A stretch of DNA of 64,000 bases from Geosiphon pyriformis uo1 (taxonomy: Eukaryota; Fungi; Glomeromycota). The DNA is taken from the NCBI GenBank assembly GCA_016748015.1, contig JAAOMT010000590.1, positions 302,544 through 366,543 on the forward strand. Direction: 5' to 3'. This document shows positions 15,609 to 46,478 of this stretch, one piece after another (position 1 is the stretch's first letter; every line of letters starts with the position of its first letter). Below the pieces are notes generated by a model. It was given only the letters and a program-made list of their open reading frames with translations. It searched no databases and was not told the DNA's origin. The position numbers and the translations under genes are program-made.

Positions 15609-16441
15609 TGTTACAGAATGGTTTTTTTGGTTATTTTAATTGCTAATATCTTGTTTTAATTGCAATTAGTCTCTTATAAGTTCCTCAATTCTATTTGTGT
15701 AATAATATTACTATTATACTAAAGGCTTTCTCTTAATGTCATGATATAAGTTATTTCTCAATTTTTGATTGTTGTGTGTGTGTTTATGTACTTCTTTCTA
15801 GAGGCTGAACTGAAATCTACCCACTGTTTGGGGTCTTCTCTGAGACTATCCTTGCAATTGTTTGATGTGTTTCTCTAATTTAAAAACACAGAATATTAAT
15901 AGCCTTTAACACTTTTCCTAATTCTCACAATAAAGCTTTTATTAATTAGTAACAATATAAATAATCTTGATCAGAAATTATTCTTCTAAGAAATTTAGCT
16001 AATGAATGATAGTTTCATTCAATAAATGATACAATTAAGTTTTTTAATACTTTGAGTTGTGATCATTCAGTTTTTAATATTCTTTTTTATTTCTTTTTGA
16101 TTAAAGGTTTTTGTGGATATTTATTTTAAAAGTAAAGATTAGAAGATAATTAAAGTGAAACTGTTGGATGAATTGTTTGATAATTTGTTTTATAATTTCT
16201 TGTTTTTCTCAATATTAAAGTTACTATATATATACATGTTTGTAATTCTATGAGAAAACATATTGTAATATTTTTTTTTAATATTTCAATTTGGTGTTTG
16301 CTGCTATTACCAGTTGGTGTTGGTTATTATTGTGAAATAGTATTTGTTATTATGTTAATCATTACCTTTCTAAGATTATTACTGTGCTATATTATGATTG
16401 GATAATTTATGATTCTTTTGCTAAATTTTTAAACTGTAATA
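15609..16441 (-). repeat. 5' LTR of B-old
   Basis: Reverse complement of the B LTR with many transitions; abuts PBS-like TTTGGTG at 15602-15608. Confidence 0.88.
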
Positions 16442-17775: not shown

Positions 17776-18625
17776 TGTTATTTATAGAATATAGAAATTA
17801 TACATTAGTACATAAAGTAACCAATTAGAATAAGACATAGTAAAAGTAAAATTTTAGGATTTCTTTCAGAGGAATTGCAGGATTCTAGAATTACAGGATT
17901 CTAGTATAAAGAATTGCTCTCAAGAAATTACAGGATTCCAGAAATTTTAGAATTTCTGGTTAGAGAATTGAAAAATTCAAGAAATCTTGTATAATAAAAT
18001 TTATGTATATATAACAATAGTATTAGAAACAAAAAAGAGAATCCTTAGTTTAGAGCTTTTAGCTCCAACTCCATACTCATCTTTTCATATAATAGTGTTT
18101 TATAACTTGAAATAGAAACATTAAATATTAATAAAATATTTGTTACTATTACAATCTATTTTTTTATTATCAATAACTTATGTTAATAACTATCAATATT
18201 TAATTATACTGAACCAATAGTTCTTGATCATGGCTATTGATAGAATATTAACTTCTAAATTGTCTTGGCTTATTTTTTTTTATGTTTTGATTTTATTTCT
18301 TTTTTTATTTTGTTTTGTTGTATACTAATTAATTAAGAATTAAGTGCTAAGTTACTGATGTTAAAAATTGCTTGGTAAAAGACTCCTGTGAGCAGGTAAA
18401 CACTTGAAATTAAGGATTACTTATCAGAGAATTGCTGATTACCAAGCCAAGAAAAGAATTGATGAAATTGTGATTCTAAGAGACTACTAAAACAACTATT
18501 AAATCTCTGTTTATTATACAAAAGACTCCACCAAAACTTTCAGATATTACCAATCATATTAGCTATTGAGCACCAAGTTATGAGTTTGTTATTTGTTTTT
18601 AGACTCCAAATAATCACTTATAACA
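17776..18625 (+). repeat. 5' LTR of D (850 bp)
   Basis: Pairs with 37415-38265; related to the A LTR. Confidence 0.88.
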
Positions 18626-21600
18626 TTTGGTACTCTCTGTAAGATATATAAATTTACAGAAAACTAGCACCAGCAATAACCATTTAAAAGTGACAGAATT
18701 TGAAAGAAAAGGAACAAACTATCTAAAATTCACCAAATTTTTATTTCAACATTACTGTCAATACTTGGAATTAACCAACAACCAACTATCAGCAGAATCA
18801 GTCTTCAATTTTTATGTCAACAAAAGAATTAAATATTTTCTAGAAGAACCAATAAATACAAAATCAGTAAGAAAAAATTTTTATGATAAATTAATTCAAT
18901 ATATTAGCTTATTATTAAACTACAACTTTGTTCTAATCATTATTAAAATCAATAAAAAGATTGAAAATTACACCCAACAAATATTTTCTATTATATACAC
19001 AGAAAAAAACAAAAAAAAACTACAAATACTAGCAAAAACAAAGCAAATACATTTACCTACTTAAAAAAAACAGAAAGTTGATTTACTAGTGAATTTATTA
19101 TATTATTACACATCTAAAAATACCATCAATATAACATTAACAGATATGTCTACAACAAACATAACAATATCACTAAACAGAATTTTATTTCTAAAGTAAA
19201 GAGAAAAAAGCAGAATTATTAGGAACCTACAGTGATTATTTTGAGAGATTTAAATCATAATCCCCAATGCCATCAGAATTTTAATCCCTGCCACCTCAAC
19301 CAAATTTCGAAACTGCTAGTTCTTGGGAAGTAATAAAATCAGAAGAAAAGAAAGACAAAGATCAGGAATTTAATTATCAAAACCCAATTCCAAAAAATTC
19401 AGAAATACAAACTCTAATTGTTTGAACTTAGCAAAACTCAAACAATTCAAACTCCACCCCTATTGTTTACCAAAACTTACTTCCAGTAATCATGATAGAC
19501 CCATCAGTTAACCCAATTGCTAAACAGCAACAACAACAGCAACAACTACCACTTTAGCAATTACTTCAATAACAATCATCACCAATAGTCTATGCACCAA
19601 TTGCAAAAATTGAAAAATTTACCAGCAAAAAGAACAATGCCCAAGCATGATTAAATAACATTGTCAAAGCAATTGCAGCCAATAATTGGGATAACACCAG
19701 AGCTCTTCAGACAATCTCATATTTTTTCCAAGATATAGCCAATTTATGGTACCAAAATCTTGTAAACAAACTTCAAGGTTTTAATGCATTCAAAGTCATA
19801 TTTCTACAATATTTTAGCAATCATAACAGTATTAATTACTTAATTACTAGCTTTACCACCATTGGGCAAAGAGATACTGAAACAGTCACTACTTATTTGA
19901 AATACTTTCACCAAAATCTACATCAAATTCAAACAATTAAAGCTGACTATTTTACAATACCACAAATCTTGAATCAATTTATCTGAGGCTTATGCAGCAG
20001 TTTATTGCAATAAGTATGTTTAATGCACTTAAATACACTTCAAGCCATAGTCAATTACACTAGAGATTTCGAATTAGCTAAACTAGAAGCCAACCATGCT
20101 CAAGCTGTTAATCTAGTAATAAATAGATCATCTAACTTAAATTCGAAACTAAAACAATTTACTGAATTCATTAATCAGAAGTTAAAAAAATATTTAGCTA
20201 ACAACCATCAAGCCATTTATCAGCCACCATAATGGCATACAAATTCAGAAAGTTCTAATCAATTCCAAAATTAATTACATTTATTGTTAGTAACAAATCA
20301 ACCATGGCAATCAAAGAGACATGTATGCTATAATTGTGATAAACAAAACCATGTAAAAATAAATTGCCACACCAGAACTAATAACCTATGATCAGAAAAT
20401 CAGTACCAAAACTCTAATTATCAATTTCAAACCCAGAATTATATTAGTAATCTGTCATTTAAACAATATTAACATTAACTTTATTATTCACAAATAATAC
20501 AACAACTCATATATGCACTTTTAATATATCAAACTCTAGCACCAGTTATTTATCAGCAGCAACCACAAACTATTTATTAGCCACATTCACAAATCATGTA
20601 CTAATTGCCATCAATTTAAACTCAATCCCAAAACTTATCTCAAAACAGAAGCCAAAAACCAAGAATAATTCAAATCTACCAGAATTGGAGATCAGCAATA
20701 GTAATACACCAACTGATTTCCAGTTCAGCAATTCAACTATCTGGATCACAACAACCAAATGCAGAAACTAATTATGCTTAAAACCTGAATGCCCAACACT
20801 ATTTAAGTTTACTTATCAATTCAGAAAACAGCCAAACCAACAACTCAGAAGCCAATTAAATAATACTCACTAACAATATTTTATCTGCTGCCAGCACAGA
20901 GAATGAGTTGTTTGCTACTATTTTTCTTTTTGAATTAGAAAAGTCAATCTTAACTCTATTATTCAGTAGAACCACTTTTGATACAAAACTTATCATCATG
21001 ATATACATAGATGCCAAAGTTGATGGTCAATTTATCAAACTGATCCTCAATAGTGGATTAGCAGACAACATTATTATCTGACAACTCATAAACCAATTAG
21101 GTTACCAAGTTGATTGTATTGCCAGTATTAGGATTATTATAGCTGATAAAATGACCAAAATTCTTATTGGTGAAATTAACAACTTTTTTTTTAAAGTCAA
21201 TGACATTATTACATCTATTAAGGTGTTAATGATAAAAATCACTTAGTACCAAGCATTAGTTGGTAATCACTGGCTATTCAAAACCAATATAATACTTAAT
21301 TAGACCATATAAGAGCTTTAACTTAATTAAAACGGTCAGCATACATAAGTACCAGTAATCTGTGAACACTTTAAAAACTCTATACTGGCATTACTAATAA
21401 AATTTGAGGAAAAAAAAAGAAATCTATTTGGAAAGCCTACCAAGTCTTGTGGGCTAACACTGACTACAATAAATTACCACTAATACTTTCTTGGAACAAC
21501 AAAAAAAAAGAGAAAAAAGAAGACAAGTTACAAAAAAACACCACCACTAGTAATTAAAAAAGATCATACTCAACCAACACCAGACCAAAACCTTCTTATA

Positions 21601-24492
21601 TTCTACTTAAATATAAGAATTACAAAAAAAAGCTTTCTTCCATAAAAGTTTAAGTTATATCTAACAAAGATTACTGGACCAGAACTCATTATTACTGCAA
21701 GTTATATCATAAAAAATGCTATGGCTATCTAAAAAAACAAAATTAGTAGGACAACAAATCATGTCTCACTTGTGAAGAAACACTACTTAATAAGAAAATG
21801 TAAGATAATATTCTTGGATGAGGAAGAATGTGCAACACTTCATGCCAGTACACAATCTTTATAAGTGACTGAGTGAGTCATAGAACATTTATTAATGCAG
21901 TCTAGCATCAAATAATATCTCACTTGGATGGTTACCCACACAATAAAGACAAAATCTGGTAAATAACAAATGCCAAAATGGAAAAGTAAGATTCTGGAAA
22001 TAAAAAATAATCTACTGAAACCAGTTAACATTATCTTTATCCCCAATTCAAATGCATTTTTTGAAATTGAAACAGATCCAGAAAAATTCTATGAACATTA
22101 CCAAAACCTAGCATCTACCAAAAAAGAGCAAGAGCATTTGAAACAATTAAATACAAAATTGTGTAAATATTGCCTAATTTCCAGTGACTTCAAATATTGT
22201 GATGATTGTGACATTATTTATAATTTATCTTCACACATAATTTACATAATCTCAGAAGAAAAAAAATCAATCAGCAAATGTGCTGTAAAATTGGAATCAA
22301 AATTTAATTCCAATCTAAACTTCAATAATAATGATAATAACAATGACTTTAGCTTAATTTAAAATAGCAATAACAACAGTAACAATTTAAACTCTGCTTT
22401 AAACTCAGAACAATATATTACACTTTTTGATCTTTTTAAGAAGCAAAAACTCAAATAGTTTAGCAATAATAATGAAAGTATTATGCCAGAACATGTGCAT
22501 AATACTAATACAGAATTTGATCTAAGATATCCCAGAAAAAATGCTATCAAATTGAAACCATCTTTGTGCATATGCATTGATTTAAAATAATACTAGAAAT
22601 TCTGGTAACAACCATGGTTCAATTAGCATCTAGATCTAGTTTGACAAAGAAGAAAATCAACATTAGAGGAGAAATAATTGATGCAAAATATGTAGAAAAT
22701 ATTATTATAATGCTACAAAATAATTTAGAAAAATCATATATTATTGAAGCAAATGAAAAAATAATATAGGCAATATTCTTACTTCTAGTGAAAATAGCTC
22801 AGTTAATGTCAGTAGAAAAAAAAAATTAAGAATTACAGCAAGAGAAAAAAGTAAATTCAAATCCATAAGTAAAATAAATATACCAGTTAATATAACAGAA
22901 AAAAAAATTATTGACAAAAGAAAAGTTATCTTCACTCATCAATCAATTTTTATTTTACTATATGACTAGTATTTAGTAGTTATAAAAAGGAAAATAAGAG
23001 ATTAATCCCAGATTTTTGAAACAGAAGCTACCATTTGTGAATCAGGAGAGATTGCTATTACCAATCTTTACATACTGGTTAAAAATAACAAACACATCAA
23101 AATTTTCATTCACAACATAACTGAAGACACTATCAAAATACCAAGTGAAACTATCATTAAATATATAAACACTGAAGTTGAAAACTAACCTCCAAGCACT
23201 ATTCCAGATTTTTCACAACTGTGTAAATATGTGAATATTATATCACAAACAATATACAAACAAAAAAAATCTTATTTACTTTAACCAGAACAATTAGAAC
23301 AAATAAACTTGAGAAATTTAGACCTATTTCAACATATGCAACTTAAGATATTACTCTACAATTTTATTGATATTTTTATCAGTGAAAACAAATTTGGCAG
23401 AACTGACATCATCCAACATCAAATCAAAACTGGAAATACAATGTTAATTAAACAAAAAACATACAGAGTACTATCAACAAGCCATGAAATTATCTGACAA
23501 GAAATCAATCAGATGTTAAACAATAAGTTAATTCAATTATTAATAAATCTATGGTTATTATCAATGATACTAGTCTATAAAAAAAATAGAAAAATCCACT
23601 TTTGTGTGGATTACAGAAAACTCAACAGTATTACTTAGAAAGACAACTATTTAACTCCACAAATTCAAGAATTGTTTGATGCTTTTAAAGAAAAAAAATG
23701 GTTTTCCACTTTAGACTTAAACAGTAATTACTGGCAAGTAGCCATGAAACTGGAAGACAAAAAAAAAACTGCTTTTACAATCAAAAAAAGAATTTTGAGT
23801 TTGATATTATGCCATTTGGTTTAACTAATGCACCAGCCATTTTCCAATGATTCATAAAAATTGTTTATACTAGACTGCTATGGAAATTAGTAGTTGTTTA
23901 TTTGAATAACACCAATGTGTTCTTAAAAATATTTAATAATTATTTACATCACAGCAAGTGTTTGAAAAATTATGAAAAGCTGGATTGAAACTAAATACAA
24001 TTAAATGCTTCTTTGGTAAAACAAAACTGAAATTCTTGAAACATATTGTAAGCAAAGATAGTATCAAAACAGATCCAAATAAAATTGAGATTGTTAAAAA
24101 CTTTCCAGTACCAACAAGTCTTATAGAATTAAAAGCATTCTTGGGATTTGCTGGATATTACTACCACTTTATCCAGAATTTCTCCAAACTGGCTTAACTA
24201 TTCTACCAGCTCCAAGCCAAAAATGTGAAATATAAATGGACAGAAACTCAACAAGAAGCTTTTGATATACTAAAAAGAAAGCTCATCTAAGCATTAATAT
24301 TAATCTATTTAGATTACAACAGACCATTTATTATTATTACTAATACATCAGGTCAAGCATTAGGAGCAGTACTATCTCAGAGAAAACCGGATAGATGAAA
24401 ACATCTAGTAGTATATATTAGCCAAAATTTAAGTTCAGCTAAAAAGAACTATGAAATACCAGCATTAAAACATTTAGCTATTTATTGGGCAG

Positions 24493-25477
24493 TGTTACCA
24501 GACGAAATTAGAGATATCATTTAGCATGAAACTATCTTATAATTCCTATCATTAATTAGTATATATTATCATTCAAATTATCATTTATTACATTAAAAAA
24601 AAAAAATGTCCAAAATTATCATTTAATTAATAACCCAAATTGTACACAACACAAATATAACCTAATTGTGATGATCAATCATGCAATACCCTGAACTATG
24701 TAATATTCAAAAGTTTGCCGAAATTTATAGAAATTTGCCGAAATAATTGATAGTTCACTGAAATATCTAATAGTTCGCAGAAATAACTTGTAGTTTGCCA
24801 AAATGTATTTTTAGTTCAGTGAAATTGTAGAAAATAGCAAAGTTCAAGTTCATAGAATAGTGTTACGACAAGTTATATAAAAGAAGAGCTTCTCTCTTCG
24901 AGAAAATATATCTTACTTTAGTTTTATCACTTAGAACCATTCCTACACACACAAAAAGAAATAAATATCAAATAATTTGAAAAACCAAATTTTTTAATTA
25001 TTTGCACTTGGAAAATCCCCAAGAACCCAACTAACATTTTGAAATTGATTAGCTACCAACTTCAGTAAACTGTTAATGACTCCAGGCCTGAATTGAAAAC
25101 GTTTCCCTTGACAGAATTTCATTTCTTTTACATCTTTTTATTTTTTTTCTTTTATTTTCTTACTATAATCATTAGGGTAGTCTACAGACAAGATTTTTGT
25201 AGAAGAGTTGACTTTCACAGCAAAGTAACTATACATTTTAGTGAGCTTTTAGACGAGCAATTCCTGGGAAAGAATTGACATTTACTACAACGTAACTACA
25301 TAAAGTAACTGGCACAGAATTGGCCATTCCACTTATAAGCCCAGCAATTCAAATTATAGGAGATAATTTGAAGATAAATTCAGTTACTGGAGGTTCAACC
25401 ACATCCAGAAAATGTGAATTCACAGCAAACAAGCATCAACAACATTTAAGAAAAGAGACCAAAAACCTCTAGTAACA
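24493..25477 (+). repeat. 5' LTR of C (985 bp)
   Basis: TGTTACCAG...AGTAACA; direct repeat of 34105-35093; AGTTCGCCGAAAT-like array at 24709-24826; TATATAAA at ~24874. Confidence 0.95.
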
Positions 25478-25495
25478 TTTGGTGCTCTCCCACGG
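25478..25495 (+). promoter_or_regulatory. Putative primer-binding site of C
   Basis: TT-TGGTGCTCTCCCACGG directly after the LTR; TGG is complementary to tRNA CCA. The cognate tRNA was not identified. Confidence 0.75.
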
Positions 25496-28400
25496 AAATA
25501 ACACAGCAACAACAAATTCAAAGTGGCGACTGCCTCAGACATCACAACCTTAGAGTACTATCAATCGATTTACACACACTGCAAACAACAATTTGAAATA
25601 CGCGATGGAATCATAGCTTTCAAGAAAACACTTTTTCAATACATCGAAAATCGAATCAACAACTACCTCTTTGGAAACTATAATATTACAACAGTTAAAA
25701 GAGATCTTATTGAGAACATACTATACTATTCCAACACTGAATCAGAAAACATTAGTACTGAAGCTTGCGCTACTTATTTTAAAGAACTTGATTATAATAT
25801 TATTCAATTCTGTGAAGAAAAATATTCTGCAAACACACAATTTGTCTTTGAACTCGAATCTGAAACTGAAACCAGTAGCAACAAAAGACAAAGAGATAAC
25901 TGACCTGTTCACACAACACCCAATACTCCCAAAATATCATTCAAACATTTACAAACACCTGAACAAGGAACCAGTTCAAAACTTCCACTTACTATCACAC
26001 CTTTTTCAGCTTCACTTGCACAAGCACAAACACCTAATTCACCCTTAAATCGATTTGCAAGACCAGAAGATTTTACATTACTCAGAAGTCCCACTAGACA
26101 ACAAGAACCCCTTCAAACTAGTTCCAATCTCCTTGATTTTCTAACTGAAAATCAAAGTGAACACTCTGAGACAGCAGCAAACAAAGAAAACAACTCTGAA
26201 ATAACTGAAAAAGAATCAATAGACAGTGAAAAGGAAGAAGACGAAATGACAACATACATCGCAAAAATCCCTGAATTCAGTGGAGAAGATATTGAGACCA
26301 GTCCCCAAGAATGGCTCAACCAAGTTACTAAAGCTGGAGATGCAAATGGATGGAATGCTGCCAGAATGTTAAGAACAATTCCCTACTTTCTCAAAAGAAC
26401 AGCAGGAGAATGGTTTGAAAACTTGGCCACCCCATTTAATGATTAGAATGCTTTCAAAGCAGCCTTTCTTGAACAGTTCACCGACAATAACACCTCCATC
26501 ACTCTTCGCAATTGTTTTCGAAATATCAAACAAAAACTCTTCAAATCTGTTATGACTTATATTGGGAAATTCAACAAACTTCTCAGACGAATTCGCCAAC
26601 TCGAGACAAATGATTATTATTCTGATGCTCAAATTTTGGATCAATTTATCACTAGTCTAAAAAATAAACTAATTAAAAAGATTTGCTCACATGTGCCAGA
26701 AGATTTAAACTCTGTCATACAGCATGCGAAAAGATACGAAATGGCCATAGAAGAGGCCAACCGCACAAAACTTGTAAATTTGGCAATTGGAGAAACCAGT
26801 TCAGCAGCCAAGGAAAAAATTGACCAACTCACAAAGAAGGTTGAAAACTATTTCACCAATCAACAACAACAGCAACCCCAAAGATATCAACCACCCCAAA
26901 GATGAAATCAAAATAACTTTGCACCACTTTCCAATAACCAGCCTCAGAATTGCCATTACTGTAGAATCTCTGGCCACTGGAAAAGAGATTGCAGAAAGCT
27001 ACAACAAGACCAACAAAATAGAAGTAATCAACATTACCCTTCACCACAGCAATCTTATTATTAACCGCCACCACCAGCTTACTATCCATCAAGACCTCAA
27101 TACCAAAATAACTATCATTAGCCCACTCCACAGCCAATCCCACAGCAATACCAACAACCGTTCACACAACATTATCAAGTATCTGCTTGAAGACTGCTTA
27201 CACAAAATCAATTCACACCACAAAACCGATACCAAGCAAACAACAATAGAATTAGTTCGAACAACCAATTGGTTCCCTGAAATACCACTCAACCAAGACC
27301 CAACTACTACCACACTCAATCCAGTTATTTAACAATGCCGGAAGAACAGGATTTTCACTATACTGCACTCTCGGAAGGTAGAGCTGCAACACAACAACAA
27401 AACCCTTCCTATACTCCCACCACAATTCCACCAGCCAGAATCGCTGAAAACGCTAACCTTTCAGATATATTCCCTTTTGAATTCAAAGCAAATGAGTCAC
27501 CATTTCTGCTTAGCAATGCAGCCACCAATGAACAAAAAGCAATCATGGTCATATACACTGAAGCCAAAGTCAAAGGAAAGACAATTTGCTTGATCCTAGA
27601 CAGTGGATCTGCTGGAAGCATTATCACTTACCAGTTAATGCAACAGTTGAAAAGAAATGTCAACCAACCAGCTCAAACAGTAATTGTCACTGCTGATGGC
27701 ATGAAAAAGACCCCAGTAGGAGAAATTGACAATTTTCTGTTCACTCTTGATGGAATCACTATTCCAGTCAAAGTTCTTGTAATGAACGCACCCCAATACC
27801 AAGCTCTCGTCGGAAATGATTGGCTTCAAAAAGCCAATACTAATCTGAATTGGGAAACACAAGAGTTAATAATCTCCTACCAAGGACAACACGCCTGGGT
27901 ACCTGCCATTTGTAGTACATTCAACAAACACTCTGAAAAAGCCCCGGCTTTTGAATTTGAACCAGAAGAGGAAAAACCCCTCATTGAAACATTCATGGCT
28001 CTTGGATCAACATCCAACTGGGCCGAGGAAACAGAACAAGAACATTTTACCGCACACTTTGAACCTAAAACCTCTGGATAGAATATACCTTACTTAAAAC
28101 CCAAACCAAGAAAACAACGTTCCTATATTCCCCTTAAATGTAAGGACTGCCACAAGAAACTATTGTCAATGGGAGCCTGCATTTTACCTGAAGAAAAATA
28201 TAAAAATCATACTTGTTATTACTACAAGGCTTGCCACAAAGAACAATAGGGCCATCTAATAAAAAGAAGCAGAAAATGGGACAACACCCCTTGTTTGACT
28301 TGTGGAGATATGCTACCAGAAGAATGCAATTGGATTGATGTAGCCATGAGAGGAGGAGTCTGCGATCAGATCTGCCAATATGCTTTATCAATTTCAGAAA

Positions 28401-28869
28401 AAGTAAAAAGAGGAACACTCTTTAATGCAGCATACAACAGTGCTTTCAACAAACTTTATCACTACCCCCATAATGCCGAAATGATTTTTGACCTAGCAAT
28501 GGCATTAATTAATAGAGCTACTAAAGAAGATGTTCGCCAAATGAAGGAAGCAGAATACATTGAATACACCATGGAATTAACTGGATTCGATTACGAAGAT
28601 AAAGTAGAAGTCTACTACCAAATCACAAGTCACACCTATCCAACCCAAGAAGCTCAAATTCAATGATTAGAGCAAATAAACATTAAGCTATGTGAAGAAT
28701 GTATTATGCCTTGTGATGAACAGTGGTGTCCTGAATGCTACGCTCTTAGCATTCCCTTGTCCAGCAAAAATAATAAATACGAAATTGAATTTGGAGAACT
28801 TGAAGTGACAGAAGAAATTGAGACAACACCCATCTATCTCATTGAAAATCAGCCTGCTTTACAACTCAA

Positions 28870-29290
28870 ATATTTTAACAACAATGGACAAGGAATAAAA
28901 CCAGAAAAAGCCCACAAGATCAATGCTGGATATGATCTAAGATATCCAGGAAAAGATACTCTTACTCTCAAACCCAAATCTCTCACAAAAATCAACCTCA
29001 AAATTGTCCTCGAAATCCCACCAGGAGCAATGGTTCAAATTGCTTCTCGATCATCTTTGGCAAGCAAAGGAATCAATGTTAGAGGAGGAATCATCAATGC
29101 TGGATACACAGGAGACATCACAGTCATGTTACAAAATGAAACTGATAAACCTTTCAAAATTGAATATGCTGAAAAAATTGCTCAAGCTATCTATCTACCC
29201 TTAATCAACATTTCGGGTTTACAATTAGTTAATCAAAGAGAACAGTTGGGAAAAAGCGAAAGAGAAACACAAGGTTTTGGTTCAACTGGA
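28870..29290 (+). pseudogene. dut: C dUTPase domain
   Basis: NAGYDL, SRSSLA, GGIINAGYTG, EKIAQAIY, RETQGFGSTG. Confidence 0.92.
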
Positions 29291-29698
29291 CATTTCACAG
29301 TTCCAGTAAACATAGCTCTCAATGAACAGAAAGAATCTCACCAGATTTTACAACTTCCACAACCAATTACCATTTCACCCTTTGGAGAACACCCTGAAAT
29401 TTACATTTGTGAAAAGCCAACAACCACACAACAAATTTTTGAATCAAACGAACAAATCTGCTTGAAACATAAAATTTCGATCCCAAACATTTATATTCCA
29501 GAAGGAACAAAGAAAGTCTGAGTTACTTTTTACAATCCCAACAATTATCCCATAGTTTTATTAAATAACTTAGAAATTGGAATCATTTACAGTAACATCT
29601 TTCAACAAGAATTACCCCAAACAGTCCTTGATTTTTCTGAAATTATTGGACATTTACTACCAAAAATCAATCCAAACCCCAGCTCTGAAAACTACCAT

Positions 29699-30423
29699 TG
29701 TTACGGTTTAAGAATTTAGCAAAAAGAATCATAAAAATAATACAAACTATTCAATCATAATATAGCACAGTAATAATCTTAGAAAGATAATGATTAACAT
29801 AGTAGCAAACACCATCTCGCGATAGTGGCAAGCACCAGTTCACAATAGCAGCCAACACCAACTGGTGATAGCAGCAAGCNNNNNNNNNNNNNNNNNNNNN
29901 NNNNNNNNNNNNNNNNNNNNNNNNNNNNNNNNNNNNNNNNNNNNNNNNNNNNNNNNNNNNNNNNNNNNNNNNNNNNNNNNNNNNNNNNNNNNNNNNNNNN
30001 NNNNNNNNTTATTGAATGAAACTATCATTCATCAACTGAATCCCTTGGAAGAATAATCCTTGATCAAAATTATTCACGTTGTTACTAATTGATAAAAGCT
30101 TTATTGTGAGAATTAGAAAAGCGCTAAAGACCATTAACATTCTGTGTTTCTAGATTAGAGAAACACATTAGGCAATTGCAAGGATAGCCTCAGAGAAGAC
30201 CCCAGACAGTGGGTAGATTTCAGTTCAGCCTCTGAGAAGGAGTACATAAACACACATAACAATCAAGAATTAAAGAATAACTTACATCGCAACAGTAAAA
30301 AGAAAGCCTTCAGTGTAACAGTGACATTATCACACAAATAGAATTGAGGAACTCACGAAAGACTGATTGCAATTAAAGCGGGATATCAGCAATTAAATAT
30401 AACAAGAAAACCATCCCATAACA
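29699..30423 (+). mobile_element. Family-B LTR inserted in C (solo LTR, or a full element collapsed at the N gap 29880-30007)
   Basis: Matches 12913-13781; TSD CCAT at 29695-29698 and 30424-30427. Confidence 0.88.
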
Positions 30424-31909
30424 CCATGTTATCATGGAAAAACTATCTCGAATCAATATGGAACAACTTGAACCACAACAACAGACCCAGCTCAAAGAAC
30501 TAATTGCAGAATTTGCTGATATCTTCACTGAAAACAACAATGACTTAGAAAGAACCGATTTGGTCCAACACCAAATTTATACAGAAGATGCCAAACCAAG
30601 AAGACAACAAGCATATTGAGTTGCTCCAGAAAGCCACCAATTTATCCGAAAAGAAGTACAATAGATGCTTAACAATGGGCTTATCCAATTATCAATGAGT
30701 CCATAGGCCTTACCAGTGGTCTTAGTTAAAAAGAAGAATGGAAAGATATGATTTTGTGTTGATTATTGACAACTTAACAGTGTCACCATTGGGGATGCTT
30801 ACCCTCTTCTGCGAATTGATGACATGTTAGATGCCCTTGGAAAATCTAAATACTTTCAACATTAGACCTAGAAAGTGGATACTGGCAAGTTGCCATGGAT
30901 CCCAAAGACTGCCCCAAAACAGCATTCACAACACAAGGAGGAAACTACGAATTCAATGTAATGCCCTTTGAATTATGCAATACGCCAGCAACATTTCAAA
31001 GACTCATGAATGTTGTATATGCTGGACTCTTTTGGAAATCAGTAGTTGTCTATCTTGATGACACTGATGTTTATTCCCCATCTTTTGGACTTCATTTAAT
31101 TCATCTGTGAAAAGTTTTTCAATGATTACATAGAGTAGGATTAAAACTAAATATTGAAAAATGCCATTTTGGAAAAACAAGTTTGGCCTTTCTTGGTCAC
31201 ATAGTTAGTGAAGAAGGAGTCAAACCAGATCCAGGAAAAATCAGTGCTGTTAAGAACTTCAAAGTTCTATGAAATACTACAGAACTAAGAGGATTTATAG
31301 GATTAGCATCCTACTATCGGAAGTTTATCAAAGGATTCTCGGAAATTGCAAAACCTTTCAACTAGCTCACCACCAAAAACATGGAATACAAATAGACTAC
31401 TGAACACCAAAAAGCTTTTGAAATTCTCAAGAAAAAACTGACAACAGCCCCAATTCTCGCCTACCTGGATTTCAGCAACCAATTTTGACTAGCTACAGAT
31501 GCTTCATATACTGCCTTTGGTGCCATCTTATCACAACTAGATGACAATGGAAATGAGCGAGTAATTGTTTATGCTAGTAAAACATTAAAACCAGTTGAGA
31601 AAAACTACCCTGCCACAGAACTAGAAACAGCAGCTGTAATTTGGGCCCTACACCACTTTAATCTTTATCTCAGGCTTAAAGAATTTGATATTATCACTGA
31701 TAATATTGGACTCAAATGGCTTCAGAACAAAAATACTCAGCTAAATGCAAAACAAATCTAATGGACAGGATTTCTAGCAAATTATCAATACATAGTACAT
31801 CACAAACCAGGAAAACTCCACACCAATGTTGACTGTTTCTTCAGAATGAGACAAAATTAGAAAACAAAAACCAACACTCAACTTAACCAACCAAAAGAGC
31901 CAACAAACA

Positions 31910-33295
31910 ATGAATTCAGAAAACTACAACAATCTCAAACAATATTTGGAAACATTAACAATTCCAACAGATTGGTCTCCAGATAAAAAACATCAACTAC
32001 AACAACAAGCCAAACAATATTTTCTACACAATAACATTATTTATCATCGAAATTTCAAAAACCCAGACAAACCACTCAGACTAATACAAGAACAGGAAAA
32101 AGAGACCATATTATACAACATGCACTTAGATCCTTCATCAGCACACTTCAGAAAAGATAGCACCACTCAAAGAACACTAGAATACTACTTTTGGCCTTAA
32201 ATAAGGAAAGACATTCATGAATATGTCGAATCTTGTGATAGTTGTCAAAGAAGAGGAAGAACACGCCCTACTAAACCATTAAATTCAATCAAAGTTGGAC
32301 AACCCTTTGACCAAGTTGGTATCAATTTAGTCAGACCATTATCTATTACCACTCAAGGAAACCGTTATATTGCAGTAGCTGTAGACTATCTTACTAAATG
32401 GTCCGAAGCCAGAACCATTCAATGAGCAGATGCGAAATCAGTAGCAAATTTTATCTATGAAAACATCATTTGTAGACATGGATGTCCAATTGAACTTTTA
32501 TCTGATCAGGAGACATATTTTGTGAACAACCTAATACAAAAAATTTGCAAACAATTCAATGTCAAAAGACCTCTGTCTTCACCCTATCATCCACAAACAA
32601 ATGGACTTGTGGAACGTTTTAACAGAACATTGTGTGAGTTATTAGCCAAAGTCTCAACCAATTTTGAGCAAGAATGAGATATTTTTATTCCATTAGTGTT
32701 ACTAGCATATAGAACACTAAAACAAGATACCACAAAGCACATACCATTTGATTTAACTTACAGAAGGACAGCAATGCTACCAATTAAGTTTACAGTGGAA
32801 ACATACTCAGCACAACCAATCAATAAAAACAATTTTCAGGAAACACTTTAATGAAGAGCTTACACTCTGCTTAGCATGTTGGAAGAAAAACGACAAATAG
32901 CAGCCACCCATATTGAAAACTCCCAAGCTTGACAAAAAAAACGGCATGATAACAAATTGCCTCCAGTTACCAATAAATTTAAAATCGGAAACAAAGTTTT
33001 CTTACACAAAACTAAAGCTGAAAAACAATGGAGTGAGAAATTTGAAAATAAATGGGATGGACCATTTTTTATTCATGAAGTTTTAAACAATGGATCATAC
33101 AAGCTAAGACTTGATGACAAAATTCTAGCAAAAGTTGCACATGGAGATCGTTTGAAACACTATAATTCCAGAAACAATCTTGAACTATTAATTCCACAAA
33201 TTGGTACACATTCTCTTTTAATCAATTCCGAAGACATTCCCTGAAATTTAGAACCAGTAGTTGTTATTGAACAGCCTCCCAACTTGAACACTTAA
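31910..33295 (+). pseudogene. int: C integrase (HHCC, DDE core, GPY/F module, no chromodomain) in its own ORF
   Basis: ATG at 31910. HLDPSSAH...CDSC; VAVDYLTKW; LLSDQ; SPYHPQTNGLVERFNR; WDGPF. Several TGA/TAA stops derived from Trp/Arg/Gln codons. Confidence 0.92.
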
Positions 33296-33416
33296 TTTAA
33301 ATTTATTATTATAGTTATCTTCTTATAATTTAGAAACAATCTCACAAAAACAAAACAAAAATAACATAAAAACCCATACACCAAAAATAATTTTCTTTTA
33401 TTTTAAATTGCTTATA

Positions 33417-34093
33417 ATGACTATTCCTCAAAACATTCAACAATTATCTCAAAAACTAATGTTAGCTTTAAAAACAATACCCGAATTATCTATTACTGTT
33501 ATTGGAAATTATATTAATTATACCCAAACAGAAGTAGTTACAAATTTAGCCCCAAATTCACGAAAATATCACCTGTATAAAAAGAACACAAAAAGTTATA
33601 CTGGAATTCACCTGCCAGAACTTTTAAAGCTTGCTTTAAGAGAAAATCTAATGCTCACTCTGATTAGTATTCCACCAAATGCTACAATTTAACAAAGACT
33701 TCAACTGTGTTTCAATAAGGAAAACACTGAATATCCTCCAATCTATAGATATTTTCACATTGGAAAAACACTCTACAAACAGAAACTGGAACTTACAACA
33801 GCAAACCTCACAAAAGAAGCTATTCAGAAACAACTCCACAATAAATTCAAGACAACAGCTGGATCAACAAACAGTCGCTACAGGCTCAGAGCTGTTCTTA
33901 GACTTTATAACCTATTCTACACCTGTAAAAACGTACTACAAAACCCAATATTTCAACCTTTGAAGATTCAATACATTGGAAAGCTCACAGAACTGAAATT
34001 TCAACATTTTTCAGACCAAATTTCTTCAATAATTTTGGATTATTATCTGGAAATAACAAACAGTACTTGGACTTTGATGGAGCTCAGTCTTGA
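33417..34093 (+). pseudogene. C ORF3, unknown ~225 aa protein between integrase and PPT
   Basis: One frame is open from ATG 33417 to the PPT with a single TAA (33690). Its C-terminal part resembles D 37245-37330. Confidence 0.65.
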
Positions 34094-34104
34094 GAAAAAA
34101 ATTA

Positions 34105-35093
34105 TGTTACCAGATGAAATTAGAGATATTATTTAGCATGAAACTATCTTATAATTCTTATCATTAATTAGCATATATTATCATTCAAATTATCACTTAT
34201 TACATTAAAAAAAAAAAAAAAATGTCCGAAATTATCATTTAATTAATAACCCAAATTGTACACAACACAAATATAACCTAATTATGATGATCAATCATGC
34301 AATACCCCGAACTATGTAATATTCAAAAGTTTGCCGAAATTTATAGAAATTTGTCAAAATAATTGATAGTTTACTGAAATATCTAATAGTTCACAGAAAT
34401 AACTTGTAGTTCGCCGAAATGTATCTTTAGTTCAGCGAAATTGTAGAAAATAGCAAAGTTCAAGTTCATAGAATAGTGTTACGACAAGTTGTATAAAAGA
34501 AAAGCTTCTTTTTTTGAAAAAATGTATCTTACTTTAGTTTTATCACTTAGAACTATTCCTACACACACAAAAAGAAATAAATATCAAATAATTCGAAAAA
34601 CCAAATTTTTTAATTATTTGTACTTAGAAAATCTCTAAGAACCCAACTAACATTTTGAAATTGATTAGCTACCAACTTCAGTAAACTGTTAATGACTCCA
34701 GGCCTGAATTGAAAACGTTTCCCTTGACAGAATTTCATTTCTTTTACATTTTTTTATTTTTTTTTTTTTATTTTCTTACTATAATCATTAGGGTAGCCTA
34801 CAGACAAGATTTCTGTAGAAGAGTTGACTTTTACCGCAAAGTAACTATACATTTTAGTAAGCTTCCAGACAAGCAATTTCTGGGAAAGAGTTGACGTTTA
34901 CTACAACATAACTACATAAAGTAACTGGCACGAAATTGGCCATTTCACTTATAAGCCCAGCAATTTAAATTATAGGAGATAATTTGAAGATAAATTCAGT
35001 TACTGGAGGTTCAACCACATTCAGAAAATGTAAATTCACAGCAAACAAGCATCGACAACATTTAAAAAAAGAGACCAAAAACCTCCAGTAACA
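34105..35093 (+). repeat. 3' LTR of C (989 bp)
   Basis: Direct repeat of 24493-25477; preceded by a decayed PPT at 34092-34104. Confidence 0.95.
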
Positions 35094-35335
35094 GCAGTTA
35101 TAAAATGGAAAAAATATTTAAGCCAAAAATTTGATGTATATACTGATCACAAAAGATTGACATCAATTCAGAAACAAAAATTTGGAAACAACTACCATGC
35201 CAAAAGAAAATTAGAATTTTTATTATTCAAATATATTGTATATTATAAAAAAGAAAAAGAAAATAGAAATTTTGATGGTTTGTTGTGAATGAAACAAATC
35301 TAAAAACATTTCAAAACCAAAAATATAACAAAAAA

Positions 35336-36713
35336 ATGGATACACAAAAATATCAACAACTTTAACACTATATTAATACCCAGTAGTTTAAGAAGAAATT
35401 ATCTCAAAAAGAATGAAACAACATAAAAACAATCAAAATATTTTATTACTTACCAAAATATTATATTAGAAAAACAGAAAAGATTCAAATCAACCACTCA
35501 GAGTAATCACAGAACCAGAGAAAGAAACAATACTATACAACATGCACTCAGATCCAACAACAGAACATTTTTATAAAGAAGCAACCATAGAAAAAACCAG
35601 AAAATAATATTATTGGTTATTAATGTATCCAGACATTATTTAATATGTTTAAAATTGTGATGCTTGTCAGAGAAGAGAAGGAATAAAACTCAGTAAATCA
35701 CTAAGACCAATTAAAATAAGACAACTATTTAATAGAATTGAAATTGACTTAGTTGAACCATCAATAATAACCAGCAAAGACAATTGTTATATAGCAGTAG
35801 CAATAGACTATTTCACAAAATAGTCAGAGGTGAAGGTAATTCAAAAAACAAATACAGAATCTATAGCCAAATTTGTTCATCAAGACTTGATTTGTTAACA
35901 TGGATGTTTAAAAAAATTATTATCAGACCAAAAAACTCACTTTGTAAACAGAACATTAATGGAATTAATCCAAAGATTTAGAATCAAAAAACTATTATCA
36001 TTATTATATTATCCACAAACAAACAGTTTAGTTGAAAGATTCAACAGAATATTGTGTGAAGCAATTGCCAAAATCAGTCAAAAAAACCAAGAAGAATAAG
36101 ATTTGTTTATATTATCAGTATTATTTGCTTATTAGACAATGAAACAAGATACTATACAAACAACATCATCTGAATTTGTTTATAGTAAAACAGCAATATT
36201 ACCAATGAAAATAAAAATCAATATATATTCAACTGAATCAATAACAGAAGCCAACTTCCAAAAAACATTGTTAAAAAGAACATACAAATAATAGAAACAT
36301 TGGAAAACAAAAGACAAAAAGCAGCTGATAACATTCAAAAATCACAAAAAAAACAAAAAAAATAACATAATAATCAATTACCAAATAAACCAGTTGAATT
36401 CAGAATTGGAGACAAAATACTCTTATATTGTACCAAAGCAGAAAAACAATAGAATGGAAAATTTGACCCCAAATGGAACAAACCATTTCACATAGAAGAA
36501 ATTTTAGGAAATAGAGCTTACAAACTAAGATGAGATAATAAAATCTTAGTAAAAGCAGCATATAGAAATTGACTGAAACCATATTCTAATACAGTATTAT
36601 CATCTACTAATAATATTTTACAATTGGGAGTACAACAAATATTAGTCCAACCAGATGAGATTTCATGAGATTTAGAACCAATTATAGTCATCAATACAAA
36701 CACATCAAATTGA
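35336..36713 (+). pseudogene. int: D integrase, degenerate, own ATG
   Basis: MDTQKYQQL start; HSDPTTEH...CDAC; YYPQTNSLVERFNR; C-terminal DLEPIIVI. Confidence 0.85.
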
Positions 36714-37414
36714 TCAAACAAAATAGTATTTAAAAACATAGTAAACACAACCAAAAGCAACAATAAAAAATAAAGATTACCAATAATATCTACTCACTTA
36801 TACAACAACTATTCCAATTAATTCAACAAACAAATATAGAAATCACAATTAATCAACAAATTATTTAGTACAAAGATAATAAAAAAAAACCCCAATACAA
36901 AACACATGAAAAACTGGAAAACACTATAAACAAGATAATAGCAAAAGTAAAATTGTCAATGGAAATACCAGAAACAGTTATACTATATTAAAAATTGACA
37001 AAAAAAACTTGGAAGTAGTAAATACAACAATTTTCAAGAAACTTTTGTTATTATTACTTGAGGCAAAACCTGAATATTCAGAACTTATACACAAATAAAA
37101 CAAAATGGGTATTTAACACAATAATACTATAACAACTTAAACAATTTGTGAGGAAGAATAATCTGTTTACATAAACATGAGCCATTTATTAACTATATGC
37201 CAGATTTTAAGATCAATTAGCAATACTACTTAATAAAGTAATAGATAGAGTTACTATTAACTAATTAGAAAAAATAACCAATGCCCAATTTGAAGAATTA
37301 CAGATCCAAATAACTCACATAATTCTTGAAAAAAAAGTTCAAAAGTTAATTAAAGAAGAAAAGTTAGGAGAGATAGGAGATTTCAATAGAGCTCAATATT
37401 AAAGAAAGAGATAA

Positions 37415-38265
37415 TATTACTTATAAAATATAGGAATTATACATTAGTACATAAAGTAGCCAATTAGAATAAGACATAGTAAAAGTGGAATTCTAAAATT
37501 CTTCTTAAAAAAATTGCAGGATTCCAAAATTACAGAATTCTAATATGAAAAATTGCAAAATTCCAGAATTCTAGGATTTCTGGCTAGAAAATTAAAAAAT
37601 TTAAGGAATTTTATATAACAAAATTTATGTATATATAACAGTAGTATTAGAAGCAGAAAAAAGAATTCTTAGTTTAAAATCTTTAGTTTTAATTCTATAC
37701 CCATCTTTTTATATGATAGTGTTCTATAACTTGAAATGAGAACATTAAATATCAATAAAATACTTATTACTATTACAATCTATCTTTTTATTATCAACAA
37801 TTTATGTTGATAATTATCAATACTTAATTATACTAGACCAATAGCTTTTAATTATGATTATTAATAAGATATTAATTTTTAAATTGTCTTGGCTTATTTT
37901 TTTTTATGTTTTGCTTTTATTTTATTTTTTATTTTGTTTTGTTGTATACTAATTGATTAAGGATTAAGTGCTAAGTTACTAATGTCAAGAATTGCTTGGT
38001 AAAAGATTCCTGTAAGCAAATAGACACTTAAAATTAAGAATTACTTACCAAAAGATTGTTAGCCACCAAGCTGAAAAAAAAATTGATAAAATTGCAATTT
38101 TGAAGACTACTAAAACAACTATTAAATCTCTGTTTATTATATAAAGAACTCTAACAAAACCTTCAAACAACCAAAATCTTTAGATATTACCAACTATATC
38201 AGCTATTGAGCACTAAGTTATAAGTTTGTTATTTGTTTTCAAACTCCAAATAATTATCTGTAATA
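37415..38265 (+). repeat. 3' LTR of D (851 bp)
   Basis: Pairs with 17776-18625; termini decayed to TATTAC...GTAATA; PPT remnant at 37401-37414. Confidence 0.87.
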
Positions 38266-39394: not shown

Positions 39395-42300
39395 ATTTTT
39401 TTTATTTTTTTATTTTTTTTATTTTATGAGTGAAATCCAAACATTATCTAGAACTATACATTAAAAAAATAATCTAAACTAAGTGTAAATTATGTATTTT
39501 CTATACATGACCAGCCACTTAGACTGATTAGGACAATACTATTTAACTATATAAACTGAAACAGAATTACCAATACCTGAAAAAAATGAACAAAGTCTAT
39601 AAAAGCCAAAATAAACACCAAATACTTCAGTGATACCAAGCAACCTGACCATACCAGCTGATAATCCTAAAGTCAAACCAGAAACTGAAACAAAAGCTGA
39701 CCCATTTATCAGGATCAGGCCATTTTTTTCCATGTAAGTACAATGTTTAGCATAAACCAACCAGACATTATTCCTAAAAGCAAGACAGAAAGAATGCACA
39801 AATTCAACAATCTTTAAATTAACAATCTTGGGATCATGAAAAATAGAGATAGCTTTACAAAGCTAACCATCAAAAACAAAATCCTTAAATGGAGTCATAG
39901 AAACAGAGACATTAGAAACACAAAATGATAACAGCTGTAATATACATAACAAAGAATAAAAAAAGCCAGAAAGAGTTTTCCAAAAAACCACAAAGGTATC
40001 CAATATTTGAAGATAAGTAGAACAATCAATGTTACAAGAGAAAACATAATCTAATATCTCCACAACACTACAATACAAACACAATACATTAAGGTAATAG
40101 CAGTTATAAAGACATTTTTGAATAGCAATAGGCAGCCAATAATACAAAGCTTTTATAAAATAAATACATGCAGAAGCTGTAAACTTGCTAATAAAACTAG
40201 TAGCCATATGCAAATCAGGGTGTCACACCAATGAAAAGCTAAGCCAATCAATATCAAAATGCAGATTAACATTTAAAAACATAGAACCAGAACCAACTTC
40301 CTAATGGGCATAACAAACAGAACAAAAAACATCACAAACAAAATGTCTAAAGTTGCTGGAAACCATATAACCATCAGCTACTAAAAAGCATTCAATCAAA
40401 TAGGGAGAAAAGTACCAATTAAAGAAAGAAGTGGCATTAGCAAGTGCATCAGCATGCTTATTTTTCAAAACACCAGAGTGGTTTTTCACTTTGAGCCAGA
40501 AAATCCTTAAATTCTTACTGCAAACAACATTAACAATATGTCAATATTCAACCTAATACTGATTGTAAAAGTCCAGAGACACCAAACCCAGTTCCAATTT
40601 ACAAGCATCCAAAGCAGATTGACTATCAGAAAACAAGTAAACAGAACTAAAAAGAGGAACACACTCCAGAGCCAATGCAATAGCTTGTATCTCCACCAAG
40701 GTGAATAACATCAAACCCAAAACACCTACACCTAAACCCAAATCAATGTTTTCAAAAAAAACCACAGTACCAGTTTTCATGTTAACCATATTTAGGTTCT
40801 TCAGAAATCCATCCATATATACCAAAAAACTGCCAGAAACAACCCAAGAAAGCCGATCACAAACAGAACCAAAGTTGCAAGACTTAAAAATACTTAGAAA
40901 ACCAATATCATTCAAAACAATAAGATGTGTAGAAGAAAATATCACATCATCGAGAAATGCAGTAGAAAGCTTAAATTACTTAAGAGTAAGACTATGAAGA
41001 TCCAATCTCTTCTACCACTTGAAAGTGTACCAATTATAAACAGCACCACAATAATTATAAAGTTGATTCATAAAGACAATGCCATATCTTCAGAGAAATA
41101 AGAGACACTTGAAAAATTTTGATTTACCAAGAACAACAAACATGAACACCCCATCACAAAAATAAAAAGAACTGTTAAAAGAGCCACCCAAAGACAAATT
41201 GCACTCTAAAAGAATGTGAACTATGCCCACCAGAAAGTTATTAAAAGAACTAACTTGAATACAAACAGAAAAACTTAAAAAATAAACAGGATGCCAACAT
41301 AAACCTTGCAAGTCATGAGATTTGTGAGCAAACAAATAACCCAAAATCTCATCAGAATTCACAAAGCTAATAAGGGAAGCCACTTTACTCTCAGACTGAA
41401 GTTGGACAAAAAATTTTAAACCATAAAATAAAGAGTGATAGATTATATCACAAGAAAAATTGATAGGAAGACTCAACTTGGACTTCAAGTCTTTATAAAT
41501 TAAAGCATTTTACTTGTTACATACACCAACCAGAATAAAACTAAACTGCATTCTATAGCTAACAATAGAATAAAAAACAGCCAACACCAAATATAAGAAC
41601 TGCTTATCTAAAACAGTCTTCTTTAAAACCAGATTGACAAAAAAGTGAATGTCTAAATATGCCTTAGCCAAACTAAGCTTTAAGAGACCATCTATTGAAA
41701 AAAAGATACCCAAATATTGATGAAATTCACCCTTTTTGGTGATAGAAATGGGCAATTCACTGATAGACAAAGAAGATATATCAACTCTACAATTAATAAA
41801 AATAGCCACTGTTTTGTTGTTGTTAATAGAGATGTTATTAATTTAAAAAAATTTACTAGCAACATTGAGAATATGTTAAGTAGCAATCTGACTACTACCA
41901 ATCCAAATTGTATTATCAATGAAGGCACTAGCAGTGAAAAAAAAAAAAAGTTTAGCCTGACACTTAATGCGACCACTTCCAGAAATAAAATAAGAACTTA
42001 ATCTGTATCCATATACACTTTTCTGTCTCTTGATCTTATGCAAAAGAGGATTATAAAATATATGCCACAAGAGAAGAGAAAAGACCTCACCCTGGTCTAA
42101 ACTATCATGAACATAATAACTACTGGTTAAACCAAAATCAGTCATAATTCTGTTGATATAACTCTTATGAATACTACCAAAAAATTGAATAAATTTGCTA
42201 CACATTTTGATTTTAACCAAACTCTTCTCAAGATGTTCCCAATCAACCAAATCATATACCTTCCACATATTCTGTAAAATCAGTCAAAGCTCCCAGTTCT

Positions 42301-46370: not shown

Positions 46371-46478
46371 ATAATAATTAATATTATAAAACATATAAAA
46401 ACCTTATAATTTAATTAATTGGTTTTATTTAAAGTATATTTTATTAAAAAATTAAGATATATAACAAAAATTAATTAA

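What the first reader, a model, noticed from the sequence alone, without database searches (positions are those of the whole stretch)
24493..35093. Candidate undescribed complex LTR retroelement lineage with three ORFs and extra domains
Element C is the most complete example, D repeats the layout, and B repeats the 5' half. The order is LTR, PBS, [GTG extension, CA, NC, PR, multi-CxxC, dUTPase, RT, RH] stop, [ATG integrase] stop, [ORF3], conserved motif, PPT, LTR. It has 4-bp TSDs and no chromodomain. Each part is read from the sequence. That the combination is new is my inference; I could not run a search.
Basis: partly seen in the sequence, partly recalled or inferred. Interest (0 to 1): 0.85.

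Follow-up and report, generated by a model that had tools for sequence, protein, structure and literature searches.

The report
Retrotransposon with a free-standing integrase gene
This decayed jumping gene belongs to a group of Gypsy-type retrotransposons of mycorrhizal-type fungi whose integrase is not the tail of the usual polyprotein but a separate gene followed by a small third gene of no known family, so the integrase is likely made by ribosomes that restart after a stop codon and would have to reach the particle by a route of its own.

Summary
The element is real: 24493-35093, LTRs 94% alike, GCAG target duplication, primer site and purine tract, one Gag-PR-Cys-dUTPase-RT-RH frame, a stop, an ATG integrase, then a 239-codon ORF3; no chromodomain. 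This copy is dead (31 premature stops, one frameshift, a solo LTR inside). The stop after RNase H is not decay. Of 29 relatives at 50% identity or more, 26 end there. In 11 of 11 metagenome loci with this integrase type a stop precedes its own ATG, in three different frames. Named relatives are Rhizophagus, Funneliformis and Geosiphon proteins. ORF3 matches a helical, non-membrane family found behind integrase in other loci (profile match 95%) and fused to it in one protein. The dUTPase position is already published; the Cys-rich block and GTG extension are shared only among this window's families so far. Likeliest mechanism, untested: termination-reinitiation. Correction: element B is not a half element but the host that C split. 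Ten literature searches found no description, but no named clade was in my trees. Earlier notes of this scan report a split integrase and a third ORF in other genomes.

The parts
24493..25477 (+). 5' LTR of element C
   Evidence: 94.3% to the 3' LTR; TG..CA ends, GCAG before it
25480..25497 (+). Primer-binding site (starts TGG, 2 bases after the LTR); tRNA not identified
   Evidence: sequence; same LTR-end/TTTGGT junction in B, X, L007, L024
25523..26245 (+). N-terminal Gag extension, likely opened by GTG in AAAGTGG context
   Evidence: GTG at the like place in B and Y, ATG-GTG in X; 25% identity over 187 aa to Y, E 4e-7; start itself inferred
26246..26900 (+). Capsid domain
   Evidence: Pfam Retrotrans_gag E 8.5e-7, Ty3_capsid E 2.6e-5
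26951..26992 (+). CCHC zinc knuckle (nucleocapsid)
   Evidence: C-x2-C-x4-H-x4-C read in the translation
27560..27829 (+). Aspartic protease
   Evidence: Pfam Asp_protease_2 E 3.7e-8
28139..28738 (+). Cys-rich block with about six Cys pairs, predicted zinc-binding
   Evidence: 41% identical to the intact copy in element Y; also in B and X; no family match
28901..29290 (+). dUTPase
   Evidence: Pfam dUTPase E 2.5e-21
29699..30423 (+). Later insertion: solo LTR of family Y, with N gap 29880-30008
   Evidence: 98.6-98.9% to Y's LTR; CCAT duplication
30428..31860 (+). Reverse transcriptase and RNase H, ending in TAG 31858-31860
   Evidence: Pfam RVT_1, RT_RNaseH; no variant at 8% or more at the stop
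31861..31909 (+). 49-nt A-rich spacer without ATG
31910..33295 (+). Integrase as its own ORF (461 codons): HHCC, DDE core, SH3-like end, no chromodomain
   Evidence: Pfam; 98 of 120 relatives begin in the same column
33417..34136 (+). ORF3 (239 codons), helical, no membrane segment; reads through the purine tract into the 3' LTR
34080..34101 (+). GAGCTCA motif and polypurine tract
   Evidence: same motif before the 3' LTR in B, Y and L007
34105..35093 (+). 3' LTR of element C
   Evidence: GCAG after it
17776..24492 (+). Host element B, 5' part (LTR, primer site, Gag, PR, Cys block, dUTPase, RT, start of RNase H)
35094..38265 (+). Host element B, 3' part (RNase H end, TAA ending 35303, integrase ATG 35336, motif, purine tract, LTR)

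Best explanation
C is a dead copy of a Ty3/Gypsy-type LTR retrotransposon group whose Gag-protease-RT-RNase H frame stops right after RNase H and whose integrase has its own ATG, and the integrase is likely translated from the same genomic RNA by ribosomes that terminate and restart. Shown: the layout, its presence across relatives, and that ORF3 belongs to a family found behind integrase. Inferred: restart would give little integrase per Gag, which a single Gag-Pol frame cannot otherwise arrange; free integrase would then enter the particle by binding the genomic RNA or the polyprotein; ORF3, small, helical and mostly basic, likely acts as a nucleic-acid-binding helper of integrase or of the RNA. 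dUTPase would keep uracil out of the cDNA (known role, PMC2864245 passages).
For: Stop is not decay: in run X1 contigs 11 of 161 places show another letter at 8% or more, none in the TAG or the ATG. Of 29 relatives at 50% identity or more, 26 end within 35 aa of RNase H, 2 have a long non-integrase tail, 1 is a gene model with integrase. 11 of 11 loci with integrase 40% or more like P0126 have a stop before it, against 5 of 42 loci with more distant integrases. 98 of 120 stand-alone integrases start in C's ATG column. Of 14 junctions three overlap (ATGA twice, TAATG once) and two more lie within 14 nt; frames are 0, +1 and -1; 12 spacers without an extra ORF hold 1 ATG against 4.9 in shuffles. 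In 7 of 14 the integrase frame is closed after the RNase H stop. UAAUG restart works in a fungus at 2.5-4.4% (PMC2699510 abstract) and in retrotransposon SART1 (PMC10275272 passages). RT-RH plus integrase tree: 9 such rows form one side, SH-aLRT 99. ORF3.
Against: No RNA or protein data were seen. C's own gap is 49 nt, and 9 of 14 gaps exceed 30 nt; two loci (L013, L027) carry a small ORF between RNase H and integrase, which simple restart explains less well. No TGGGA element within 120 nt upstream of the stop in 0 of 14. Restart after a roughly 1870-codon ORF is unusual. The RT-RH tree alone did not recover the group as one side in IQ-TREE (3 changes), and integrase alone gave support 76. C's own decayed ORF3 scores only 2.5 bits on the non-Geosiphon profile, and B's ORF3 region is no better than shuffles.
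Confidence: 0.6

Rival explanations
1. The layout is real but integrase (and ORF3) come from a separate subgenomic RNA, spliced or started at an internal promoter, or from internal ribosome entry on the A-rich spacer.
For: Long gaps and intervening ORFs in L013 and L027; spacers are 39-80% A; ORF3s of rotifer elements are typically said to use spliced messages (PMC5408684 passages); ORF3 here would need a second restart.
Against: A YAG acceptor lies within 40 nt of the ATG in only 4 of 14 junctions; overlapping stop-start in three junctions has no use under this model.
Confidence: 0.25
2. Integrase is still made as part of a polyprotein, by frameshift, readthrough or a short intron across the junction, as three Rhizophagus clarus gene models imply.
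For: P0056, P0059, P0060 join RNase H to integrase; P0067 is an uninterrupted RH-integrase-ORF3 fusion in the same group; in 7 of 14 junctions, C included, a shift or readthrough is possible on paper.
Against: Three different frames; integrase frame closed in 7 of 14; no canonical slippery heptamer in any overlap. The GT donor that such a join needs is present in 2 of 13 junctions read, and the join removes the last conserved RNase H motif; L007, nearest to those models, shows TAATG in raw DNA.
Confidence: 0.1
3. The stop and ATG are decay or chance in a dead copy of an ordinary gag-pol element.
For: C has 31 premature stops and its LTRs differ almost only by transitions (51 of 52).
Against:: same stop position in intact relatives, such as the 1577-aa Rhizophagus irregularis protein P0253 that ends at the RNase H motif.
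Confidence: 0.03

Closest known systems
Canonical Ty3/Gypsy (Metaviridae) LTR retrotransposons, e.g. yeast Ty3
   Same: TG..CA LTRs, 4-bp duplication, primer site, purine tract, order PR-RT-RH-IN; Ty3 is the best PDB hit for both RT-RH (E 4.6e-98) and integrase (E 1.7e-30), using intact relatives.
   Different: Pol is described as holding integrase (PMC12440569, PMC3248453); here integrase is a separate ATG ORF, Gag and Pol are one frame, and an ORF3 follows.
dUTPase-bearing fungal Gypsy elements (PosPlaTy3-5 of Postia, Tmt1 of Tuber, Phanerochaete elements) and bdelloid families
   Same: dUTPase in pol, between PR and RT in PosPlaTy3-5 (PMC2864245 passages; PMC5408684 passages).
   Different: No split integrase in the passages read; those elements were not in my trees; C adds a Cys-rich block before dUTPase.
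Stop-start bicistronic systems: SART1 non-LTR retrotransposon, hypovirus CHV1, caliciviruses
   Same: UAAUG or AUGA overlap between a long ORF and the next (PMC10275272 passages, PMC2699510 abstract); seen in L002, L007, L009.
   Different: Different element classes; most junctions here have spacers; no TGGGA element; function untested.
Accessory ORFs of LTR elements: bdelloid ORF3s, CERV of C. elegans Cer1
   Same: Small extra gene besides gag and pol; CERV is needed for export of genomic RNA (PMC10309623 abstract).
   Different: No sequence or fold link shown; this ORF3 has no membrane segment and no Pfam or PDB match.
Odin retrotransposons and lokiretroviruses
   Same: LTR elements with a changed RH-IN region.
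   Different: They have a tether plus a second RNase H, and Odin's integrase is inside Pol (PMC9040795 passages); C has one RNase H.

Membership tests
Ty3/Gypsy (Metaviridae) | TG..CA LTRs, 4-6 bp target duplication, primer site, purine tract | tested here: met
Ty3/Gypsy (Metaviridae) | Domain order PR-RT-RH-IN with a Ty3-like capsid | tested here: met
   Pfam
Ty3/Gypsy (Metaviridae) | RT and integrase closest to Ty3/Gypsy | tested here: met
   Ty3 is top PDB hit for relatives P0027 and P0126
Ty3/Gypsy (Metaviridae) | Integrase encoded inside the Pol polyprotein | tested here: not met
   hence filed as a variant, not as a canonical member
Named Ty3/Gypsy clades (GyDB, REXdb, Repbase; Ylt1-like) | RT falls inside a described clade | not testable with these tools
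   no clade-labelled reference sequences could be fetched; trees hold unnamed or species-named rows only
Chromoviruses | Chromodomain at the integrase C-terminus | tested here: not met
   no chromo family at E 0.1 in C's integrase; none listed for the 120 integrase relatives
dUTPase-bearing fungal Gypsy (PosPlaTy3-5, Tmt1) | dUTPase between PR and RT | tested here: met
dUTPase-bearing fungal Gypsy (PosPlaTy3-5, Tmt1) | Common RT clade with those elements | not tested
Odin / lokiretrovirus | Tether plus second RNase H | tested here: not met
   one RNase H, frame ends right after it; definition from PMC9040795 passages
Troyka | CG..CG ends and 3-bp duplication | tested here: not met
   TG..CA and 4 bp; definition from PMC12440569 abstract
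Env-bearing Gypsy (errantivirus-like) | ORF3 is a membrane fusion protein | tested here: not met
   0 of 80 ORF3-family rows and none of 3 Geosiphon-type copies reach 19-residue hydropathy 1.6
Gmr1-like clade (definition recalled) | Integrase upstream of RT | tested here: not met
   integrase lies downstream of RNase H
Termination-reinitiation systems (SART1, CHV1) | Downstream ORF output depends on upstream termination nearby | not testable with these tools
   only the junction geometry was measured

The most novel reading that the evidence does not exclude
A large clade of LTR retrotransposons spread through arbuscular-mycorrhizal fungi has taken integrase out of Pol, makes it by translational restart, packages it in trans, and carries a dedicated helical ORF3 of a fold not matched in the PDB that works as integrase's targeting or loading partner: a third way to build a retroelement particle, with intact copies in Rhizophagus to test it on.
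Probability: 0.3. Interest if true: 0.85.

Novelty: new variant of a known kind. Interest (0 to 1): 0.65.

Why it matters
In LTR retrotransposons and retroviruses integrase normally rides into the particle as the tail of Pol (established knowledge). A whole group that encodes it apart must dose and package it differently, which makes integrase recruitment and restart after a very long ORF directly testable. It also matters for annotation: LTR elements cover 41.2% of the Geosiphon pyriformis genome (PMC11952901 passage), the 120 best ORF3 hits are filed as Geosiphon hypothetical proteins, and gene callers bridge the stop in Rhizophagus clarus models.

Tried and rejected
Host genome not held, so no copy count, no tRNA match for the primer site and no DNA-level selection test. 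No RNA holder listed. Careful RT-RH tree and two of three AU tests did not finish; the finished one rejected C with a Lolium protein and four unnamed loci, p 0.023. IMG/VR scan gave 9 unnamed loci, not used in trees. ORF3 function: no Pfam family (the DUF1016_N hit at E 0.051 did not recur in 40 family members), no PDB sequence hit, Atlas first hit 0.90 with no family, Geosiphon model poor (pLDDT 42.7), L024 model pLDDT 71.9 but best Z 4.8 and no Foldseek hit at E 0.001. Four-sequence profile match was weak (probability 13%). Integrase-ORF3 co-folding returned no verdict. Cys block: Atlas 0.81 at best, no BLAST hit among stored relatives; no whole-database sequence search was run with it. A C-terminal EP-hydrophobic integrase motif is in only 39 of 120 relatives, so dropped as a packaging signal. 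My recollection that Odin elements split integrase was not borne out. LTR divergence was not used for dating because 51 of 52 changes are transitions. The Geosiphon genome paper is not held; PMC6416283 had none of my terms.
Full report
1. The observation. Element C spans 24493-35093. Its LTRs are 94.3% identical, end TG..CA and carry GCAG on both flanks; a primer site follows the 5' LTR and a GAGCTCA motif and purine tract precede the 3' LTR. Pfam on X-read translations gives Gag, protease, dUTPase (E 2.5e-21), RT, RNase H and integrase, with no chromodomain. Apart from one frameshift near 30860 and a solo LTR inserted at 29699-30423, Gag to RNase H is one frame of about 1870 codons. It ends at TAG 31860. 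Integrase starts at ATG 31910 in another frame and ORF3 at 33417. The copy has 31 premature stops, and 51 of 52 LTR differences are transitions. C sits inside the RNase H of a second, older element (about 17776-38265) whose remainder resumes at 35094 with a stop ending at 35303 and an integrase ATG at 35336. No other RT or integrase of this kind is in the window.

2. The stop after RNase H is a lineage trait. In contigs of run X1, which may be the window's own source, 484 records lay on 31780-31940; 11 places show another letter at 8% or more, none in the stop or the ATG, and no indel is listed, though depth is near its lowest at the stop and 13 records diverge just there. Among the 120 best relatives of 675 aa or more, 40 end within 35 aa of RNase H, 26 have a long tail without integrase and 54 include integrase; among the 29 at 50% identity or more the counts are 26, 2 and 1. 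The 120 best integrase hits in the 261-832 aa window are 390-453 aa long. That window excludes fusions, but 116 start with Met and 98 start in the column of C's ATG. In raw DNA, 11 of 80 metagenome loci hold an integrase 40% or more like P0126, and all 11 have a stop before it; of 42 loci with more distant integrases 37 run RNase H into integrase and 5 have a stop, which I did not examine. Named cluster members are Rhizophagus irregularis, R. clarus and Funneliformis geosporum, plus one integrase filed under a bacterial metagenome bin; most relatives have no host. The 120 best ORF3 hits are named Geosiphon pyriformis, so the window is likely from that fungus or close kin.

3. One group. FastTree on RT-RH (182 rows) puts all 51 stop-after-RH rows, 21 of 27 long-tail rows and 3 R. 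clarus gene models on one branch (0.868). A quick IQ-TREE on 56 of these rows did not (3 changes) and the careful run did not finish. RT-RH joined to integrase (37 of 88 rows holding both) gives C, six split loci, one R. clarus model and P0067 as one side at SH-aLRT 99; integrase alone gives 76. P0067 is an uninterrupted RH-integrase-ORF3 fusion; whether ancestral or re-fused is not resolved. No clade-labelled reference was available, so placement among named clades is untested.

4. How integrase is likely made. Fourteen junctions (C, B, the 11 loci, and L009 whose integrase start was read by eye) have gaps of -4, -4, -1, 5, 14, 32, 49, 62, 63, 74, 110, 163, 365 and 524 nt; the last two hold a small extra ORF. 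Frames are 0 (1), +1 (2) and -1 (11). The 12 simple spacers hold 1 ATG against 4.9 in shuffles, a YAG lies within 40 nt of the ATG in 4 of 14, and TGGGA within 120 nt upstream of the stop in 0 of 14. The integrase frame is closed after the RNase H stop in 7 of 14; in the other 7, C included, a shift or readthrough is possible on paper, without a slippery heptamer. This fits termination-reinitiation best: UAAUG and AUGA overlaps mark it in viruses and in SART1 (PMC10275272, passages), and it runs at 2.5-4.4% in a fungal virus (PMC2699510, abstract and headings). A subgenomic RNA remains the main rival. Low integrase dose and packaging in trans are inferences.

5. ORF3. C's ORF3 has 198 hits; the best 120 are 59-90% identical, many of them full 239-aa or 221-aa proteins. 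The tail of P0067 matches ORFs behind integrase in L007, L024 and L012 (E 2.8e-12, 2.7e-10, 0.034), that is 3 of the 4 split loci with a whole integrase and more than 500 nt after it; L022 has none. A mixed profile found 166 clusters at 50% identity; 115 of the 146 newly listed are not BLAST-similar to the Geosiphon protein. An 80-row alignment without Geosiphon rows matches the Geosiphon profile at 95.5%, E 1.3e-8, over 126 columns; those rows were picked by the mixed profile, so the score is somewhat favoured. A non-Geosiphon profile gives three Geosiphon copies 14-18 bits against 7.0 for the best of 500 shuffles, but C's decayed copy only 2.5. The family has no membrane segment, is net basic in 61 of 80 rows and models as all-helical. 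It is not an envelope protein. Its fusion to integrase in P0067 suggests a helper of integration; CERV of Cer1 (PMC10309623, abstract) shows an RNA-export role is another option.

6. The extras. dUTPase between protease and RT is published (PMC2864245, passages) and is listed in 4 of 120 long relatives. The Cys-rich block is 41% identical between C and element Y and present in B and X; Rhizophagus relatives have a shorter Cys cluster there with no BLAST match to it. The extension upstream of capsid opens at a GTG in C, B and Y and at ATG-GTG in X, and is 25% identical between C and Y; Rhizophagus relatives have ATG-started extensions with no BLAST match to it. GTG initiation is inferred. The GAGCTCA motif before the purine tract recurs in B, Y and L007.

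7. Against what is known. It works like a Ty3/Gypsy element (Ty3 is the top PDB hit) but fails the feature 'integrase inside Pol', so I file it as a variant. It is not a chromovirus, Odin (PMC9040795, passages), Troyka (PMC12440569, first fifth and one passage) or env-bearing element. Ten searches listed no paper on a Gypsy group with a separate integrase; passages of PMC11952901, bioRxiv 2021.03.30.436303, PMC3248453, PMC10508981 and PMC5408684 do not describe one. Subscription papers, Repbase entries, the AM-fungus TE library and all supplements were not seen and may hold these elements. Earlier notes of this scan report the split integrase and a third ORF in other genomes; I read them after and do not count them as support. 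One reports 22 of 27 junctions within 18 nt, against 5 of 14 here.

8. Verdict. Real, not an artefact; new variant of a known kind. Layout about 0.95, restart mechanism about 0.6, ORF3 role open. Interest 0.65.

Noticed in passing
window 6750-16445: Related element X (minus strand, LTR 16445-15609) is split by element Y (7842-13781, ACGT duplication). Both show Gag, protease and Cys block, Y also dUTPase, but no RT, RNase H or integrase was found. Y has many N gaps and duplicated pieces, so a deletion derivative and a misassembly cannot be told apart.
   Followed up: partly
window 61309-64000 (minus): Second Y copy, 96-98% identical, also going from dUTPase start to LTR across an N gap.
   Followed up: partly
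window 24493-35093 and 17776-38265: LTR pairs differ almost only by transitions (C 51 of 52, B 116 of 119), suggesting methylation-driven or RIP-like mutation in this genome.
   Followed up: no
window 3381-6468, 41189-46250 (minus), 54014-57368: Three related decayed repeats (65-68% alike) that by eye show endonuclease and non-LTR RT motifs (recalled); Pfam found nothing at E 0.001 in 42000-44820.
   Followed up: partly
window 46413-47720 and 60063-61309: Repeat pair 81-84% alike with long open frames (46479-48485); no Pfam family.
   Followed up: partly
window 57423-57985: AT-rich tandem array of about 51-nt units.
   Followed up: no
proteins P0046-P0118 group, L024:3496-4441: A sub-branch keeps a tail of up to about 400 aa after RNase H, with no integrase and no Pfam family in two tested, before the stop and the separate integrase.
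   Followed up: partly
L013:1608-2075, L027:2548-2751: Small extra ORF between RNase H and integrase; in L013 its stop abuts the integrase ATG.
   Followed up: partly
P0053: A member of the group carries a NUDIX domain (PF00293) upstream of protease instead of dUTPase.
   Followed up: no
L007:7458-8258: An additional 266-aa coiled-coil-like ORF between integrase and ORF3.
   Followed up: no
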